Assembly: GCA_027858225.1 (NCBI GenBank)
Contig: JAQIDB010000202.1
Location: forward strand, 1-47,422
Reading direction: 5' to 3'
DNA from: Candidatus Delongbacteria bacterium
GTDB taxonomy: Bacteria; UBA4055
DNA: 47,422 bases
A model generated the notes under the pieces. The model did no database searches. It saw nothing but the letters and a program-made list of their open reading frames with translations, and was not told where the DNA came from. Made by a program: the position numbers and the translations under genes. Positions 2,619-40,490 of the stretch are shown here, in pieces; position 1 is the stretch's first letter; each line of letters begins with the position of its first letter.

Positions 2619-2648
2619 ATAAAAAAGGGACGAATGGAAATCGTCCCC
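2619..2648 (-). terminator. Rho-independent terminator downstream of trxB
   Basis: The minus strand reads GGGACGA-tttccat-TCGTCCC followed by TTTTTT, about 12 nt after the trxB stop. Confidence 0.75.
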
Positions 2649-2659
2649 TACATTGTTAT

Positions 2660-6328: not shown

Positions 6329-7288
6329 TTAATCAAAATTAATAATATTTTTTACTCTAATTGAGTTCATAATATCTCTATGTTTTTTTGTGTCGTTAGA
6401 AAGATTTTTTAATATTTCCGCAATTATTGGATCATCCGATTCGAACAGTTTAAAAAGATCTTTCTCAATTATTGAATTTTCTAAAACAAAAGCAAATGAA
6501 TAAGCTGTATTTAAAACATATTCATCTGTGAATACTTTTGCCATTTCATCTTTGACATTTTGCAATGATATTTTCACATCTTCAATTGAGCTGTCTCTGT
6601 GATCAAATTTGATCTTACCTTCATTTATCTTTATAATTATCTGCTTGATCCAAGCTTCATGTTTCTTTTCCTCTTCTACCAGAAACAACCACACACCCTC
6701 TTTAGGAAATTTTTTTCTATAATATGAATATAATTGACTTATCATCCTTTCATGTTCAGCATGATAACCTAGTAAGATTAATCCTTTATCAATCTCTTTT
6801 CTTTCTTCTTCTTTTGATTTATGAATTTCAAGTAGTTTATCAAGTTCTATATCTAAAGTAACTTTATGTGACTCAGTATCAGCTTTAAGATCATCTAGTA
6901 CTTTTTGAATCCCTTTAAGATCACTCCAAAACGAGTCAAACATTTTTCTTTCAATAATAGAATTTTCTAAAGATTTAGCAAAATCAATCACTTCTGAAAG
7001 TTTAGCACCTTTCTTTTCAAACTTTAATCTAAAATCGACAATAGACTCTATTGATTTCGATATATTATCTATTGAAAAATACCTTTTATCAAATTGAACA
7101 GATCCTTCAACAACGTTATCCAGTATAGATCTTATCCATTCTGCATGCTTGAATTCTTCATTTGAAAGGAATTCCCATATCTCCATTTCATGAAAGTAAA
7201 CTTTTAAAACAGAGTATAAGTTACCTATTGCTTCTTCGTGAAAAGCCAATAATTCAATAATTTCGAAATTTTCTTCTTTATTGCTCAT
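6329..7288 (-). CDS. Tandem double ferritin-like/rubrerythrin-like four-helix-bundle protein (two domain copies)
   Basis: Each half shows E-x6-Y (helix 1), EExKH (helix 2), ENSIIE (helix 3) and DTxxH (helix 4). It is paralogous to the next two genes. Confidence 0.6.
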   Translation of the reverse strand: MSNKEENFEIIELLAFHEEAIGNLYSVLKVYFHEMEIWEFLSNEEFKHAEWIRSILDNVVEGSVQFDKRYFSIDNISKSIESIVDFRLKFEKKGAKLSEVIDFAKSLENSIIERKMFDSFWSDLKGIQKVLDDLKADTESHKVTLDIELDKLLEIHKSKEEERKEIDKGLILLGYHAEHERMISQLYSYYRKKFPKEGVWLFLVEEEKKHEAWIKQIIIKINEGKIKFDHRDSSIEDVKISLQNVKDEMAKVFTDEYVLNTAYSFAFVLENSIIEKDLFKLFESDDPIIAEILKNLSNDTKKHRDIMNSIRVKNIINFD

Positions 7289-36192: not shown

Positions 36193-38478
36193 ATGCCAAT
36201 AATAGGTAAAGTAGGTAAAAAATCGTTCAAGGTTAAATTCCTGAACATGAGTATCCACACTATATTATTTATAGGTGGTATTACTATGGTCTACCCTTTC
36301 CTTATTATGATTTCCGCATCATTCAAAAGTAACGTCGACTCCAAATATTTTGATATCATCCCAAAGTATTTCCACAGTGATCAAATGCTTTATAAAAAGT
36401 ACACTGAATCCCGTTTCAATGAAGAAGTACTCCAATTCACCGCTCAGTATAAGAACAAATATTTTTCTTTCGATTATCTTAGTTTGCCGGAAGATGAGAA
36501 TTCTACACTGAATGAGGATTGGAAACAATTCTTAAAAGAAAATGAACAGGATTATGATGAATTCGACTATGCTATTTCAGAACAGTTCTCCCGAGGTGTT
36601 TATACCAGAAATGAAAGAGCTTTCAGAGATAAGATGACAGAAGAATTTGATGGTAATCTTCAGAATTTCAATTCAAAATATGGCATTTCCGCATCTTCAT
36701 GGGAAGATGTAAGGGAAGAATCCAAAGATATCCTTTCAAGGAAATTCACTTCTGTGAAAGTAGGTATGATGGTTGCCTATGACCAGTTTAGAAATGAACT
36801 TGATGATTGGCATAAGATATACCTTTCACTGGACGGACATTTTATCAGTAATGAACTAATTCCAGCATATAGAAATAAACTTGATCTATTGAATAATGAA
36901 TTAGGAACAAATTACACTTCCTGGGACAATATCGTACTTTCAAAGACTTTGCCTGATAATGGCTTGAAAGATCACTGGATACATTATGTTAAGAAAAATC
37001 TAAATGTTCATCATATCCGTTTAGGCAATGTCGGTATGGTCAACTATAGAAGTTACCTTGAAAAGAAGTATGTCACTATTAAATTACTTAATGATACTTG
37101 GCAGACTAAATTTACGACATTCAATGAAATAACTGCTGAAAATGCATACAGTTATGGTGCATCCTTGTTGGATTATATTTTTTTCATAGAGAATCTTGCA
37201 CAGCCTGAGAATCTACAAATTTCAAGTATTGAATTTGACTTCAGAGACTGGTTGAAGAATAAATATTCAGACATTTCAAGTATAAATACAAAGTATTCTA
37301 ACGGATATATCGATTTTTCAGAAATAAAGCTAAGTAACACATATCCTGAGAATAATCTAAGACTTCAACATGATTGGAATTCATTTGTAAGAAGCATCGA
37401 AGATCTATCATCCATAGAACTTTCAATGTCATGCCAATATGAATATATCGAATTTCTTAAAATGAAATTTCACAGAGCAGGAAAGTTAGATCTGCAGCAG
37501 TTAAATAATTCTCTGGGAACGTACTATGACAAAGAGATAAATATATATCCTGCGAAGAGACTTCCAAACAATGAAAAACAAGCTAAATACTGGACTGAAT
37601 TCGTAAGGAACTATGTAAATCCAAAATTTATTAAAGTCACCGGAGATCTAAACTCCAGTTGGCAAAATTATCTTTCTGAGAAACATGGTAAGATTGAGAC
37701 TCTGAATGAAACTTACAACTTGAAATTCAAAAACTTTCAAAATATCAGCATAGACTTTCAAAACCTTGACTATCATATCTTCAAAGAGCATAAAAGTAAT
37801 ATTTTTTGGGAATTTGTGAAACGGAACTATGTGATGATCATTGATGCAATGCTTTTTAACGGCCGGGCAATAGTGAATACTCTAATCTATTGTCTTCTTG
37901 CAATTCTTACCGCTGTGATAGTTAATCCTCTTGCCGCTTATGCGATGAGTAGATTCAAACTTAAATCGAATTACAGAATCATTCTTGTTTTAATGCTTAC
38001 GATGGCATTTCCACCGATGGTAATGGGAATACCAAATTTTCTCATCCTCAAGAACATGAATTTACTTAACACCTTCTGGGCTTTGATCCTGCCGGGAGCT
38101 GCAGATGGATATTTTATTTTCCTACTGAAAGGTTTCTTTGATTCTCTTCCAAAAGAGCTCTTTGAATCTGCAACAGTTGATGGTGCTGGAGAAGTAAAAA
38201 TATTTACAAAGATCGCAATGTCCCTTTCCAAACCTATCATGGCAGTTATTGCACTTGGAGCATTTAATGCTGCTTATAGAAACTTCATGTTCGCTTTTAT
38301 AGTCTGTCAGGATCAAAGTATGTGGACAATGATGGTGCATATCTATCAAATTACTCAGAGAAGCAGTTCCGGAGTTGGATATGCTGCACTTGTTATAGCT
38401 GCAATACCGACTTTTGCAGTGTTTATTTTCTTCCAAAATATTATTATCAAAGGAATTGTAGTTCCTACTGAGAAATAA
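36193..38478 (+). CDS. MalG-type ABC permease with a roughly 500-aa extracytoplasmic insertion after TM1
   Basis: TM1 is IHTILFIGGITMVYPFLIMI. A long soluble region follows, then 5 TM helices and the EAA loop ESATVDGAGEVKIFTKIAMSLSKP. Confidence 0.7.
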   Translation: MPIIGKVGKKSFKVKFLNMSIHTILFIGGITMVYPFLIMISASFKSNVDSKYFDIIPKYFHSDQMLYKKYTESRFNEEVLQFTAQYKNKYFSFDYLSLPEDENSTLNEDWKQFLKENEQDYDEFDYAISEQFSRGVYTRNERAFRDKMTEEFDGNLQNFNSKYGISASSWEDVREESKDILSRKFTSVKVGMMVAYDQFRNELDDWHKIYLSLDGHFISNELIPAYRNKLDLLNNELGTNYTSWDNIVLSKTLPDNGLKDHWIHYVKKNLNVHHIRLGNVGMVNYRSYLEKKYVTIKLLNDTWQTKFTTFNEITAENAYSYGASLLDYIFFIENLAQPENLQISSIEFDFRDWLKNKYSDISSINTKYSNGYIDFSEIKLSNTYPENNLRLQHDWNSFVRSIEDLSSIELSMSCQYEYIEFLKMKFHRAGKLDLQQLNNSLGTYYDKEINIYPAKRLPNNEKQAKYWTEFVRNYVNPKFIKVTGDLNSSWQNYLSEKHGKIETLNETYNLKFKNFQNISIDFQNLDYHIFKEHKSNIFWEFVKRNYVMIIDAMLFNGRAIVNTLIYCLLAILTAVIVNPLAAYAMSRFKLKSNYRIILVLMLTMAFPPMVMGIPNFLILKNMNLLNTFWALILPGAADGYFIFLLKGFFDSLPKELFESATVDGAGEVKIFTKIAMSLSKPIMAVIALGAFNAAYRNFMFAFIVCQDQSMWTMMVHIYQITQRSSSGVGYAALVIAAIPTFAVFIFFQNIIIKGIVVPTEK

Positions 38479-38484
38479 AACATT

Positions 38485-38514
38485 CCCGTAGGGGCGTTAT
38501 TTATAACGCCCTTA
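38485..38514 (+). repeat. REP-like element (GTAG plus 20-nt palindrome), left boundary of the RAYT island
   Basis: The sequence is ccc-GTAG-GGGCGTTATttATAACGCCC-tta, 7 nt after the permease stop. Confidence 0.8.
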
Positions 38515-38581
38515 ACCCAAAAAATGCACCAAAAACATACCAAATAATACAACCAATAAAACAATCCCAGTAAATATTTTT

Positions 38582-39199
38582 TCATACATCCCAATTTTTC
38601 GGATTATCAATTATATATTGGCGTATATTGTTTAATTCTTTTTCATTTCGGATAACTCTTTCAAAATAATTTCGTTGCCATATTGTTAATTGGGATTGAT
38701 GGGGATCGGTTTTTGTTAGGTTGTTATTCTGGTTCGTTATTAGGGTGTTATGAATAACACCCCTACGTGTATTTTGACGTATGTTTCGGGTTACGCATGA
38801 TTTGTAACTACGTATAATTATTGATAATGAATTTGATTTCGGTGAAATTTTGGAAAAATAATTACCTGAATCCCGCGATATTGATGTAGGGGCGTTATTT
38901 ATAACGCCCTTATTATCGCCCCCCATTCCATTATCAACCAATATTTCAATTATCCCATGAATATGATCCGGCATAACAATAAATTCATGTAATTGAATAT
39001 CAAAACGATTTTTTAATTCAAACCATTCAAAATTTACAATTTCACCAAAATCATTTAATACCATTTCATTATTAATAATCTTTCCAAATAATCTTTCACT
39101 ATCCTCCGTGCAAATCGTTATGAAATAATAACCTGATAATGAATAATCGAATTTCTTTAATCTTATAGATTGTCTATTATAATTATTTTTCCCCATCAT
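38582..39199 (-). CDS. REP-associated tyrosine transposase (RAYT; IS200/IS605-like Y1 HUH enzyme)
   Basis: The HUH motif is MPDHIHGII and the catalytic Tyr region is IWQRNYFERVIRNEKELNNIRQYIIDNPKNW. It is flanked by, and contains, GTAG-palindrome REPs. It ends in TGA. Confidence 0.8.
   Translation of the reverse strand: MMGKNNYNRQSIRLKKFDYSLSGYYFITICTEDSERLFGKIINNEMVLNDFGEIVNFEWFELKNRFDIQLHEFIVMPDHIHGIIEILVDNGMGGDNKGVINNAPTSISRDSGNYFSKISPKSNSLSIIIRSYKSCVTRNIRQNTRRGVIHNTLITNQNNNLTKTDPHQSQLTIWQRNYFERVIRNEKELNNIRQYIIDNPKNWDV
38742..38767 (-). repeat. REP-like palindrome inside the RAYT ORF (encodes RRGVIHNTL)
   Basis: The minus strand reads c-GTAG-GGGTGTTATtcATAACACCC. Confidence 0.75.
38885..38912 (+). 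repeat. REP-like palindrome inside the RAYT ORF (encodes KGVINNAPT)
   Basis: The plus strand reads t-GTAG-GGGCGTTATttATAACGCCC-tta, identical to the copy at 38488-38514. Confidence 0.8.
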
Positions 39200-39358
39200 T
39201 TACCTCTAGCTTCTTAATTCATATTTCAGAATATAAACAAAGCAAAGTGTCAAATAATGACCTTTTGATGAGGAAATGAAAAATATTTGGTTGTGATATT
39301 ATATTATTATTTAGGATAAATATGTTGGAAAACAAGAATTGTTGAAGGTAATTATCTA

Positions 39359-40264
39359 TTAACCAAATTCTGTTGTAACTTCTCCGATAATGATTTCTTC
39401 ACCACATTCAGCACAATTATGCTTACCTTTAGTTTTATAAAATCCAAATGCACCACAAAATGGACAATAATTATTTGTTACAGATTTTTGTTGGTTTACA
39501 AACAAATCAGATTCAATTTTAAAATACTGTTTCGAAATTTTATTAATAAAAATTTTAAATTCGTCATTGGGATTTTTAGAATGATAATAAGATAATATTT
39601 CGGATAGATTGTTTTCATATTCACTATTAAAGTTATAATTTAAATGAAAAGGATCATCTTTAAATACTATTCGATTAATGGCTATAAATAAATCATAAAC
39701 TACTAAAGAAATAAATAATTCTTCAAAACCAATTTTTAATGGCTGAACATTGAGATTAAATAGTTTTGTTTTGTATTTTCGAATATCTACGTGGCTATTG
39801 AATTTCTTATCACCACCTAATACTTTCGTTTGATCATAACTCAAATCGTTCCATAATCCATCATGCTCAAGTTCAATATCATATATATGGTTATGCATTA
39901 AGGTATCTCTTAAAATAAATATTTCTGCAAGAATCGAAGGTATTTTAGTTGTATTAAATTTCTTATCTCTCAACGCAATCATTTTTAAATATTTTTGTAG
40001 TGAACTCATTTTATGCAATTTATTCTCAACTATCAATTCTTTGTTATGATGAAATAGTCTACTCATATAACTTTCAATCGAGGCAACTGTTAAAATTATT
40101 CCGCTATTAGAATATGTGTTTTCTAAATGCCCTATTTGAAAGAAATCCTTCCTTGGGAATTTATTTTTTTTATAATCCCCAAATGATTTACTTAACAAAT
40201 CTAAAACCACTAAATTAATGTACTCACCACCCACCACTGAAATTAATTTCTGCTTATTTCTCAT
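39359..40264 (-). CDS. Hypothetical protein with a C-terminal zinc ribbon; possibly a HEPN-like (Rx4H) nuclease domain
   Basis: The C-terminus is CPFC-x14-CAEC. The central motif ILRDTLMHNH fits R-x4-H. It is predicted to be largely helical. I recognised no other family. Confidence 0.3.
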   Translation of the reverse strand: MRNKQKLISVVGGEYINLVVLDLLSKSFGDYKKNKFPRKDFFQIGHLENTYSNSGIILTVASIESYMSRLFHHNKELIVENKLHKMSSLQKYLKMIALRDKKFNTTKIPSILAEIFILRDTLMHNHIYDIELEHDGLWNDLSYDQTKVLGGDKKFNSHVDIRKYKTKLFNLNVQPLKIGFEELFISLVVYDLFIAINRIVFKDDPFHLNYNFNSEYENNLSEILSYYHSKNPNDEFKIFINKISKQYFKIESDLFVNQQKSVTNNYCPFCGAFGFYKTKGKHNCAECGEEIIIGEVTTEFG

Positions 40265-40338
40265 AATTTTCCTCTATATACATTACATATAATATATCCC
40301 TAATTAAATATTTTGTAAAACAATTATTCAAATAAATT

Positions 40339-40364
40339 GGGGCGTAATAAATTACGCCCCTACA
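40339..40364 (-). repeat. REP-like element, right boundary of the RAYT island (inverted relative to 38485)
   Basis: The minus strand reads t-GTAG-GGGCGTAATttATTACGCCCC. Confidence 0.75.
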
Positions 40365-40490
40365 TTTCGTGTCCTTTCGTGTTTTTCGTGGTTAAATCTT
40401 TTTTTCTAAAAATTTTCTTAGGTAATCCCTATAATCATCTTTAAATTATTATACTCAAACTTAAATAATTATTATAAAAAGGAGAAAATC

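What the first reader, a model, noticed from the sequence alone, without database searches (positions are those of the whole stretch)
38485..40364. A 1.9-kb island bounded by inverted GTAG-palindrome REPs carries a RAYT plus an extra cargo gene
- The sequence GTAG-GGGCGTTATTTATAACGCCC has the canonical REP architecture: a 5' GTAG tetranucleotide followed by an imperfect palindrome.
- It occurs at 38488 on the plus strand and at 40364 on the minus strand, with the GTAG ends facing outward.
- Between the two copies are an intact HUH/Tyr RAYT gene and a 301-aa zinc-ribbon protein of unknown function.
- The island sits between the last ABC permease gene and fba.
- RAYTs are normally described as single domesticated genes flanked by REPs. 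A REP-bounded unit that includes a passenger gene looks more like an IS200/IS605-style mobile unit with cargo, or a hitch-hiking defence or toxin gene.
Basis: partly seen in the sequence, partly recalled or inferred. Interest (0 to 1): 0.65.

Follow-up and report, generated by a model that had tools for sequence, protein, structure and literature searches.

The report
REP transposase locus with passenger gene
This is a long-resident, single-copy REP/RAYT locus (a domesticated hairpin-cutting transposase with its own palindromic repeats) that holds one extra gene of unknown function; that gene has a separate, younger history, and nothing shows that the whole 1.9-kb block moves as a unit.

Summary
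The GTAG-footed palindrome is at 38488-38511 (+) and 40340-40363 (-), with the GTAG ends facing outward. The right copy is a compensated variant (TTA..TAA to TAA..TTA).

The RAYT (38582-39199, -) is intact. Its REP is dispersed at low copy: 11, 28 and 22 copies in the three species of the genus.

The locus is best read as a REPtron, a known kind of element, and not as an IS200/IS605-like mobile unit.
- It is single-copy.
- It sits at the same junction with the permease gene in three roughly equidistant lineages.
- One of those lineages keeps only a RAYT remnant, with no REPs and no 301-aa gene.

The 301-aa gene is a separate module (39278-40363).
- Its synonymous divergence from the 84%-identical relative is 0.23, against 0.51 for the RAYT and 0.67 for the permease.
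- Its left edge matches the indel edge in the sister species.
- Its right edge is exactly the GTAG end of the REP.

The protein belongs to a rare, unannotated family with invariant E..Rx4HxH and a zinc ribbon. The family is possibly HEPN-like and is not otherwise linked to RAYTs (0 of 29 loci).

Moderately interesting: a new variant of a known kind.

The parts
38488..38511 (+). REP1, variant A (GTAG + 9-bp stem, 2-nt loop). It lies between the convergent permease and RAYT genes, 70 nt past the RAYT stop.
   Evidence: exact match. 24/24 identical in the 84%-diverged relative L011. Absent from sister species G001.
38582..39199 (-). RAYT (REP-associated Y1/HUH tyrosine transposase), 205 aa. HUH = H79-I-H81; catalytic Tyr in WQRNYFERVIR (Y178).
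   Evidence: Pfam PF01797 27.7 bits (cut-off 23). NCBIfam REP_Tyr_transpos E 7e-17 against IS200 TnpA E 6e-4. pN/pS about 0.2 against L011. 2819 relatives, named RayT by JGI.
38743..38766 (-). In-gene REP (encodes RRGVIHNTL, residues 145-153); 3 compensated differences from REP1.
   Evidence: Kept in L011 with paired changes C-G/T-A.
38886..38909 (+). In-gene REP (encodes KGVINNAPT, residues 97-105, just after the HUH strand). Identical to REP1 over 27 nt.
   Evidence: The same position is occupied by other REP types in many RAYT paralogues.
39230..39267 (-). Promoter-like dispersed element CAAAAGGTCAYTATTTGACACTTTGC..TATATT just upstream of the RAYT. It marks the left limit of the passenger module.
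   Evidence: At least 28 copies in the genome upstream of genes, including a RAYT paralogue on C174. Conserved in G001 and L011. Extra contig depth and loose ends here.
39278..40363 (-). Passenger module: the 301-aa gene, its 3' spacer, its promoter region and REP4.
   Evidence: Absent as one block (39278-40400) from G001. Spacer identity to L011 steps from 79.5% (39200-39277) to 92.6% (39278-39358). Homology to L011 ends exactly at 40363.
39359..40264 (-). 301-aa protein of an unannotated family. Mostly helical core with invariant E114, R119, H124 (Rx4HxH); C-terminal CPxC..CxxC zinc ribbon.
   Evidence: AF2 pLDDT 85.5. No Pfam, NCBIfam, PADLOC or PHROG family for the core.
40291..40319 (-). 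Predicted sigma-70-like promoter of the 301-aa gene (TTTACA-17-TATATT).
   Evidence: 10 of 12 matches. A consensus match only; the region is conserved in L011.
40340..40363 (-). REP4, variant B. It lies 75 nt upstream of the 301-aa gene start. Its GTAG end is the outer limit of the island.
   Evidence: 24/24 identical in L011, with unrelated sequence immediately outside the GTAG.

Best explanation
The locus is a REPtron: a single-copy, chromosomally fixed RAYT gene with copies of its own GTAG-footed REP. Two copies flank it in inverted orientation (dimorphic variants A and B) and two lie in frame inside its ORF.

By analogy with E. coli TnpA-REP (inferred), the RAYT acts in trans on single-stranded REP hairpins and keeps a small dispersed REP population in the genome. 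The block itself does not transpose.

The 301-aa gene is a passenger. It lies in the gap between the RAYT promoter and the 5'-side REP. It forms a discrete 1.1-kb module (39278-40363) with its own promoter. The module is bounded on one side by a dispersed promoter-like element and on the other by the REP.

The module reached the two lineages that carry it, or was exchanged between them, later than those lineages split. The most likely route is recombination that used the repeated sequences at its edges.

The product is most likely a stand-alone nucleic-acid-targeting effector: an Rx4H, possibly HEPN-like, catalytic core plus a zinc ribbon. Such proteins are typical of variable or defence-type gene neighbourhoods. 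It is not a partner of the transposase.

Shown: the anatomy, REP dispersal, fixed position, separability and the different divergence. Inferred: RAYT activity on these REPs, the route of acquisition and the biochemical role of the passenger.
For: REP and RAYT
- There are four REP copies, all within 1.9 kb, with 0 expected by chance.
- The RAYT has HUH and Tyr motifs and matches TnpA-REP far better than IS200 TnpA.
- The REP family is dispersed at 11/28/22 copies in G000/G001/G002, with a control count of 0.
- RAYT homologues of only 49-65% identity, at unrelated loci, carry the very same 24-mer. The REP is therefore cognate to this RAYT subfamily.

Fixed position
- The RAYT is joined to the permease gene in G000, in L010 (99.7% identical), in L011/L012 and, as a remnant, in G001.
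- The three lineages are equidistant: 84.0/84.3/85.2% identity in the permease 3' end.
- The island is single-copy. The 301-aa gene is absent from 60 relatives.

Separate history of the passenger
- pS is 0.23 (0.17-0.30) for the 301-aa gene, 0.51 (0.41-0.61) for the RAYT and 0.67 (0.58-0.76) for the permease.
- Identity in the non-coding spacer steps up at 39278, the same point as the indel boundary in G001.
- Homology to L011 ends exactly at the GTAG of REP4, where a Fur-like gene replaces fba.
- The RAYT has its own promoter-like element between the two genes.

Passenger family
- There are 289 relatives among 1.8 billion representative proteins.
- 0 of 29 loci have a RAYT within 4 kb, and the gene's GC is always below that of its flanks.
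- There is no conserved neighbour.
- One copy lies beside a HEC-01 ATPase/DUF4276 pair and one beside a HEPN gene.

Literature: REPtrons are vertically inherited, do not transpose as units, are lost by deletion, and in E. coli are replaced by hicAB (PMC3333891, PMC6006769).
Against: - No activity was tested.
- Which state is ancestral cannot be settled. G001 may have lost REP1, most of the RAYT and the passenger block in three separate deletions, or G000 and L011 may have gained them.
- The low pS of the passenger could partly reflect constraint or extreme AT bias (GC3 0.19). However, the RAYT has GC3 0.24 and more than twice the pS.
- A second, independent arrival at exactly the same spot needs an explanation that I can only infer.
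- The other RAYT paralogues of this genome have only in-gene REPs and no flanking ones. The classic 'flanked by two REPs' layout is therefore not the rule in this subfamily.
- The HEPN assignment is weak: Foldseek E >= 2.7 and no Pfam HEPN hit.
Confidence: 0.6

Rival explanations
1. The 1.9-kb block is an autonomous or recently autonomous IS200/IS605-like element. The two outer REPs act as its ends, and it carries the 301-aa gene as cargo.
For: Inverted REPs with GTAG outward bracket both genes. Both outer REPs are 24/24 conserved in a lineage that is only about 84% identical. Homology to that lineage ends exactly at the outer GTAG of REP4. REP1 and REP4 are both missing from G001. Three members of the passenger family weakly match the TnpB/Cas12f zinc-ribbon model PF07282, with a best E of 5.8e-5.
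Against: There is one copy per genome. The left junction with the permease gene is the same in all four contigs, and a RAYT remnant sits at that junction in G001. The RAYT and the passenger have different synonymous divergence, so they did not travel together. The hairpins are inverted, whereas IS200/IS605 ends lie on one strand. The IS200 TnpA model scores 20 bits against a cut-off of 55. The apparent 38512->40334/40340 joints in public contigs have sides of only 24-29 nt and are explained by the palindrome itself.
Confidence: 0.08
2. The passenger module is a REP-tagged cassette that the RAYT itself moves or exchanges. Cleavage and rejoining at the GTAG foot of REP4 (and at a second REP, for example the in-gene copy at 38886) shuttles the gene between genomes or sites. 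On this reading the REP/RAYT system captures genes.
For: The right edge of the module is exactly the GTAG end. The in-gene REP at 38886 (+) and REP4 (-) form an inverted pair with GTAG outward. The module has a younger history than its neighbours. E. coli TnpA-REP cleaves and rejoins REPs in vitro (PMC3333891). In an Elusimicrobia genome a 35%-identical family member lies between two inverted copies of a dispersed repeat, including a perfect 57-nt inverted repeat, inside a hydrogenase operon. That genome's Y1 transposase gene is flanked by palindromes that share a short core with those arms.
Against: The left edge of the young tract (about 39278) is not at a REP. RAYT codons 1-51, which lie between 38886 and 39278, are highly diverged (pS 0.61). 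27 or more other loci of the family show neither inverted flanks nor a RAYT. The core shared with the Elusimicrobia palindromes is weak (E 0.03). No movement was observed.
Confidence: 0.12
3. The 301-aa protein is a functional partner of the RAYT, for example a zinc-ribbon DNA- or RNA-binding accessory or regulator. On this reading the two genes form one functional unit.
For: The genes share a strand and are adjacent, and the pairing is kept in two species-level lineages. The protein has a zinc ribbon. Both genes are under purifying selection.
Against: 0 of 29 other family loci have a RAYT. None of the closest RAYT homologues or the in-genome paralogues has the gene. The RAYT has its own promoter-like element. 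The two genes have different divergence.
Confidence: 0.07
4. The arrangement is coincidental: two ordinary REP insertions lie near a RAYT, an unrelated orphan gene sits in a variable intergenic hot spot, and the REP 'boundaries' carry no meaning.
For: The region between the permease and GH38 genes is variable. G001 has a lipoprotein gene flanked by a duplicated fba-upstream block, and its fba is only 64% identical while the neighbours are 89% identical. L011 has a Fur-like gene beyond REP4. REPs typically settle between convergent genes.
Against: By chance, only about 0.007 of the roughly 8 dispersed copies are expected within any given 2 kb of a 2.4-Mb genome, yet two extragenic copies lie here. 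Both are perfectly conserved in L011. A homology break falls exactly on the GTAG.
Confidence: 0.1

Closest known systems
REPtron: tnpA-REP/RAYT gene with flanking REP/BIME sequences (E. coli yafM locus, Stenotrophomonas, Pseudomonas; Nunvar 2010 PMC2817692; Ton-Hoang 2012 PMC3333891; Quentin 2018 PMC6006769)
   Same: - A Y1/HUH enzyme of the TnpA-REP type.
- REPs with a 5' GTAG followed by a palindrome.
- Inverted, dimorphic flanking REPs with GTAG outward.
- The same REP dispersed in the genome.
- Single copy, a fixed chromosomal site, vertical inheritance, and decay by deletion in a sister species.
   Different: - A 1.1-kb passenger gene lies between the RAYT and its 5'-side REP.
- Two more REPs lie in frame inside the RAYT ORF.
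- REP copy number is very low (about 10-30), and the copies in this genome are mostly singletons rather than REPIN doublets.
- The host is a low-GC bacterium from a saline spring, not a proteobacterium.
IS200/IS605 family insertion sequences (IS608, ISDra2; TnpA Y1 with or without TnpB)
   Same: An HUH/Y1 enzyme next to a second gene whose product ends in a zinc ribbon. Hairpins lie near the ends of the block.
   Different: Not multi-copy and not at variable sites. The end hairpins are inverted instead of lying on one strand. The enzyme scores below the IS200 TnpA model cut-off. The second gene has no RuvC/TnpB core and is not linked to Y1 genes elsewhere.
TIRtrons and REP- or TIR-bracketed gene cassettes (Di Nocera 2013, PMC3733652)
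   Same: A gene bracketed by inverted copies of a dispersed repeat. The Elusimicrobia member of the passenger family shows exactly this layout.
   Different: Here only one edge of the passenger module is a REP. The bracketing pair encloses the RAYT as well.
HEPN-domain RNases, e.g. HepT toxins of MNT-HEPN pairs (PDB 6m6u, 7ae6) and stand-alone Abi-type HEPN proteins
   Same: An invariant Rx4H motif followed by an aromatic residue, a helical core, patchy distribution, low GC relative to flanks, and variable neighbourhoods.
   Different: No HEPN profile matches. The fold match is not significant. The motif sits at the end of a helix and is followed by a beta-hairpin. There is an extra C-terminal zinc ribbon and no antitoxin-like partner.

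Membership tests
REPtron (RAYT + cognate REPs) | Y1/HUH transposase domain with HUH motif and catalytic Tyr | tested here: met
   PF01797 27.7 bits against a cut-off of 23. H79-I-H81 and Y178 in WQRNYFERVIR.
REPtron (RAYT + cognate REPs) | Enzyme belongs to the TnpA-REP clade rather than to IS200 TnpA | tested here: inconclusive
   NF047646 REP_Tyr_transpos E 7e-17 but 61.6 bits, below its cut-off of 80; the match is split by the REP-coded inserts. NF033573 IS200 gives only 20 bits. Relatives are named RayT by JGI. No phylogeny against reference groups was made.
REPtron (RAYT + cognate REPs) | REP = 5' GT(A/G)G foot plus imperfect palindrome | tested here: met
   GTAG + 9-bp stem + 2-nt loop in four copies. 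The variants differ by paired, stem-preserving changes.
REPtron (RAYT + cognate REPs) | Gene flanked by REPs in inverted orientation | tested here: met
   REP1 (+) lies 70 nt past the stop. REP4 (-) lies 1141 nt before the start, with the passenger gene in between.
REPtron (RAYT + cognate REPs) | Same REP dispersed elsewhere in the genome and tied to this RAYT type | tested here: met
   11/28/22 copies in three genomes of the genus, control 0. An identical 24-mer occurs in and around RAYT homologues of 49-65% identity.
REPtron (RAYT + cognate REPs) | Single copy, fixed site, vertical inheritance; does not move as a unit | tested here: met
   One copy. The same permease junction in G000, L010 and L011/12, and a remnant in G001.
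REPtron (RAYT + cognate REPs) | Enzyme binds and cleaves its REP as single-stranded DNA | not testable with these tools
   Needs purified protein and oligonucleotides.
IS200/IS605 insertion sequence | Several copies and/or different sites within and between genomes | tested here: not met
IS200/IS605 insertion sequence | Left- and right-end hairpins on the same strand | tested here: not met
   The outer REPs are on opposite strands.
IS200/IS605 insertion sequence | IS200-type TnpA; optional TnpB (RuvC + zinc ribbon) | tested here: not met
   NF033573 20 bits against a cut-off of 55. The 301-aa protein has no TnpB/RuvC match; the window protein itself has no PF07282 hit, only three of 25 family members weakly match that zinc-ribbon model.
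HEPN superfamily (for the 301-aa protein) | Rx4-6H motif conserved across the family | tested here: met
   R119 and H124 are invariant in 25 sequences; E114 is invariant and H126 is near-invariant.
HEPN superfamily (for the 301-aa protein) | HEPN helical-bundle fold or a profile match | tested here: inconclusive
   The AF2 model is good (pLDDT 85.5), but the best HEPN matches have E 2.7-9 and probability <= 0.16. No Pfam HEPN hit; one relative matches HEPN_RiboL-PSP at E 0.0037, below the cut-off.

The most novel reading that the evidence does not exclude
The passenger module is a REP-tagged gene cassette. The RAYT (or REP-directed recombination) cuts and rejoins at the GTAG foot of a REP and so inserts or exchanges a whole gene next to the transposase gene. 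REP/RAYT systems, thought to move only 100-bp REPINs, would then occasionally capture and shuttle protein-coding genes. The Elusimicrobia copy of the same gene family, which sits between inverted copies of that genome's own dispersed repeat inside a hydrogenase operon, would be a second instance.
Probability: 0.12. Interest if true: 0.8.

Novelty: new variant of a known kind. Interest (0 to 1): 0.45.

Why it matters
RAYTs are the textbook case of a domesticated transposase whose locus is thought to hold only the enzyme gene and its hairpins. This locus is a natural example of a protein-coding gene lodged inside the REP boundaries. Sequence evidence shows that the gene arrived, or was exchanged, separately, and that one of its edges falls exactly on the REP cleavage-side foot. 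This gives a concrete substrate for testing whether RAYT/REP chemistry can move anything larger than a REPIN. It also flags an unannotated protein family (Rx4HxH core plus zinc ribbon, about 290 representative sequences) as a candidate stand-alone nuclease or defence gene. If the edges turn out to be ordinary recombination scars, the locus is simply one more REPtron in an insertion hot spot.

Tried and rejected
- Public reads. Only fragmented Logan contigs from three saline-spring runs hold the region. The apparent joints 38512->40334/40340 have 24-29-nt sides and are artefacts of the palindrome. The 38477->38589 joint belongs to a co-resident G001-like strain. There was therefore no usable test of excision.\n- Structure of the 301-aa protein. 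With 4 sequences the model failed (pLDDT 33). With 25 sequences it was good, but Foldseek against PDB and BFVD gave nothing significant; the best viral hit was an uncharacterised 215-aa myovirus protein at E 0.05.\n- Profile search against PDB sequences. Only zinc-ribbon noise, such as MetRS and ribosomal proteins.\n- Pfam, NCBIfam, PADLOC and PHROGs on the protein and its relatives. No family matched the core. All source names are 'hypothetical protein'.\n- Conserved partner gene. Upstream and downstream neighbours at 12 loci are unrelated to each other.\n- RAYT against PDB. Only spurious DARPin matches and a weak 4er8 hit at E 0.33.\n- Synteny beyond the genus. The permease orthologue exists in the family, but fba is not next to it, so no wider 'empty site' could be defined.\n- Search of the Elusimicrobia metagenome record by locus handle failed. 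The genome copy was reached through a pattern scan instead.\n- Rejected idea: that the low pS of the passenger is mere AT bias. The RAYT has similar GC3 and twice the pS.
Full report
**What is in the sequence.** The region 38480-40490 lies between the stop of a 761-aa ABC permease gene (36193-38478, +) and the start of class-II fba (40491, +). It holds two ORFs on the minus strand.
- The first is a 205-aa Y1/HUH protein (38582-39199). It has HIH at residues 79-81 and the catalytic Tyr in WQRNYFERVIR. Pfam PF01797 scores above its cut-off. NCBIfam REP_Tyr_transpos gives E 7e-17, against 6e-4 for IS200 TnpA.
- The second is a 301-aa ORF (39359-40264) with a C-terminal CPxC..CxxC motif.

The 24-mer GTAGGGGCGTTATTTATAACGCCC and close variants occur four times in the 47-kb window, all within this region. 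None is expected by chance.
- 38488-38511 (+), exact.
- 38743-38766 (-), three compensated changes.
- 38886-38909 (+), exact, and identical to the first copy over 27 nt.
- 40340-40363 (-), variant B, with TTA..TAA swapped to TAA..TTA.

The two middle copies lie in frame inside the RAYT ORF, encoding RRGVIHNTL and KGVINNAPT. They are dimorphic, and they are two of four.

**Is the REP a genomic repeat tied to this enzyme?** Yes.
- The assembly is a 2.42-Mb, 204-contig genome bin with 32.5% GC. It holds about 80 GTAG-footed hairpins of several sequence families.
- The island's family is low-copy: 11 hits in this genome, 28 in one sister species and 22 in the other. The reversed control pattern gives 0.
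- In this genome the dispersed copies are singletons. In the sister species some form inverted A/B doublets 10-40 nt apart.
- RAYT homologues of only 65, 51 and 49% identity, found at unrelated loci in other metagenomes, carry the very same 24-mer inside and around their genes. REP and enzyme therefore go together.

**Does the block move?** I found no sign that it does.
- The RAYT and the 301-aa gene are single-copy. The other RAYT paralogues in the genome (C53, C174, C13) share at most 62% identity.
- The same order, permease - REP1 - RAYT - 301-aa gene - REP4, is found in a 99.7%-identical strain from another sample (L010). In that strain the RAYT carries a 5-bp deletion.
- The same order is also found in a lineage whose island is about 86% identical at the nucleotide level (L011/L012).
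- In the sister species G001 the permease stop is followed directly by the last 51 codons of the RAYT. Then comes the RAYT 5' leader, and 6 nt later the fba-upstream block. REP1, the body of the RAYT and window 39278-40400 (the 301-aa gene plus REP4) are all missing.
- Over the last 643 nt of the permease gene the three lineages are equidistant: 84.0, 84.3 and 85.2%.

The RAYT has therefore sat at this junction since before the three lineages split. This is the behaviour described for REPtrons: vertical inheritance, no transposition as a unit, and loss by deletion (PMC3333891, PMC6006769). Public read sets were of no help. Only fragmented contigs exist, and the apparent REP-to-REP joints have sides of just 24-29 nt, as expected from a palindrome.

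**The 301-aa gene has its own history.** I compared the window with L011 at synonymous sites (Nei-Gojobori, bootstrap 95% intervals).

| Gene | pS | 95% interval | GC3 |
|---|---|---|---|
| 301-aa gene | 0.23 | 0.17-0.30 | 0.19 |
| RAYT | 0.51 | 0.41-0.61 | 0.24 |
| Permease | 0.67 | 0.58-0.76 | 0.33 |

- The low value for the 301-aa gene holds along its whole length.
- AT bias does not explain it. The RAYT has a similar GC3 and more than twice the pS.
- In the non-coding spacer between the two genes, identity steps from 79.5% (39200-39277) to 92.6% (39278-39358). This is exactly where homology to G001 stops.
- On the other side, similarity to L011 begins precisely at the GTAG of REP4. Outside it L011 has unrelated sequence and a Fur-like gene in place of fba.

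The passenger is thus a discrete 1.1-kb module, 39278-40363. On its left is a 40-nt promoter-like element, which serves as the RAYT's own upstream element and is present at least 28 times in the genome. On its right is a REP. Both flanking REPs are 24/24 identical between lineages that differ at about 15% of positions. The two genes are separable, and the passenger was acquired or exchanged after the lineages diverged. Recombination through the repeated sequences at its edges is the simplest route, but that is an inference.

**What the passenger is.**
- Only four clusters in 5.8 billion proteins match it directly.
- A profile search finds 289 representatives. About 25 are full-length with the zinc ribbon. 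Many are about 220 aa and lack it. One carries an N-terminal GIY-YIG domain.
- E114, R119, H124 and P175 are invariant. E64, H126, N172, D191 and the four Cys are nearly so. The signature is E-x4-R-[DN]-x3-H-x-H-x-aromatic.
- With 25 sequences AlphaFold gives a confident model (pLDDT 85.5, pTM 0.87): helical, with a beta-hairpin after the motif and a terminal zinc ribbon.
- Foldseek finds nothing significant. HepT-type HEPN toxins recur among the weak hits at E 2.7-9.
- No Pfam, NCBIfam, PADLOC or PHROG family covers the core.
- In 29 metagenome loci no RAYT lies within 4 kb, the gene's GC is always below that of its flanks, and the neighbours are unrelated to each other. One locus adjoins a HEC-01 ATPase/DUF4276 pair and one a HEPN gene.

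My best guess, at about 40%, is a stand-alone HEPN-like nuclease of the kind found in variable or defence neighbourhoods. It is not a TnpB analogue and not a general RAYT partner.

**A second bracketed copy.** The 35%-identical member in Elusimicrobia bacterium GWA2_56_46 is a 40%-GC gene in a 56%-GC genome. It lies alone between hoxH and hycI of a NiFe-hydrogenase operon.
- It is flanked by arms of about 200 nt that include a perfect 57-nt inverted repeat.
- The arm is itself a dispersed repeat of that genome, with solo copies on three other contigs.
- That genome has two Y1 transposase genes. One is flanked by AAAAGGTGCCWGGCACCTTTT palindromes that share a short core with the arms. This match is weak, at E 0.03.

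In two unrelated hosts, then, a gene of this family sits between inverted copies of the host's own short repeats. This keeps a REP-mediated capture model alive at low probability. The other 27 or more loci show nothing of the kind.

**In-gene REPs.** These are the subject of a separate first-stage note, but they are part of the anatomy.
- The copy just after the HUH strand, and usually a second, inverted copy before the Tyr motif, recur with quite different REP sequences in paralogues and distant homologues (C53, C174, L045, L047, L067, L046, L061 and others).
- Other homologues (L055, L063) have only classic flanking REPs.
- Between the window and L011 the in-gene copies differ by paired, stem-preserving changes.
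- In this subfamily the flanking REPs are not constant. That weakens the idea that the outer pair defines an element.

**Verdict.** Earlier notes of this scan report REPtrons with passenger genes and in-gene REPs in other phyla. I used them as leads only.

Noticed in passing
window 38743-38766 and 38886-38909; also L002 715-900, L003 770-948, L045, L047, L067, L046, L061: An inverted pair of GTAG REPs lies in frame inside the RAYT ORF: one just after the HUH strand and one before the Tyr motif. The layout recurs with unrelated REP sequences in many paralogues and homologues. Other homologues (L055, L063) have only flanking REPs. Between the window and L011 the in-gene copies change by paired substitutions.
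   Followed up: partly
window 39230-39267 (-), and at least 27 other sites in the genome (e.g. C174 1240-1265, C94 8194-8219): A dispersed 40-nt promoter-like element, CAAAAGGTCAYTATTTGACACTTTGC-N-TATATT, with an imperfect GGTCA..TGAC palindrome. It lies upstream of many genes, including another RAYT paralogue and a multi-copy gene family whose products start MQKNEI. In three places a REP follows within about 40 nt.
   Followed up: partly
L006 5713-7240 (= L072, L091; Elusimicrobia bacterium GWA2_56_46): A 40%-GC gene of the 301-aa family sits between hoxH and hycI of a NiFe-hydrogenase operon. It lies in the loop of inverted arms of about 200 nt (57 nt of them perfect) that are copies of a dispersed repeat of that genome.
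   Followed up: partly
L034 870-1940 (G001, sister species): The fba-upstream block of about 53 nt is duplicated and brackets a 255-aa lipoprotein gene of the Fibrobacter-type paralogous family. The fba of G001 is only 64% identical to the window's, whereas the permease and GH38 neighbours are 89% identical, so fba was replaced in one lineage.
   Followed up: no
L010 about 7200-7230 (strain 99.7% identical to the window): A 5-bp deletion in the RAYT splits it into ORFs of 58 and 147 aa. The enzyme gene is therefore broken, or mis-assembled, in the nearest known strain.
   Followed up: no
G002 (22 sites): In the third species of the genus most copies of this REP family carry GTAC or GTAA in place of GTAG, and no cognate RAYT was found. 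This looks like REP decay after loss of the enzyme.
   Followed up: no
L107 3704-4988; L108 102-595; L106 1978-2001: RAYT homologues only 49-65% identical to the window's carry the identical 24-nt REP, in-gene and flanking, at unrelated loci. The REP is far more conserved than its enzyme.
   Followed up: partly
window 2627-2651 (-): A member of a different GTAG REP family (GTAGGGGACGATTTCCATTCGTCCC, about 10 copies in the genome) lies elsewhere in the window.
   Followed up: no
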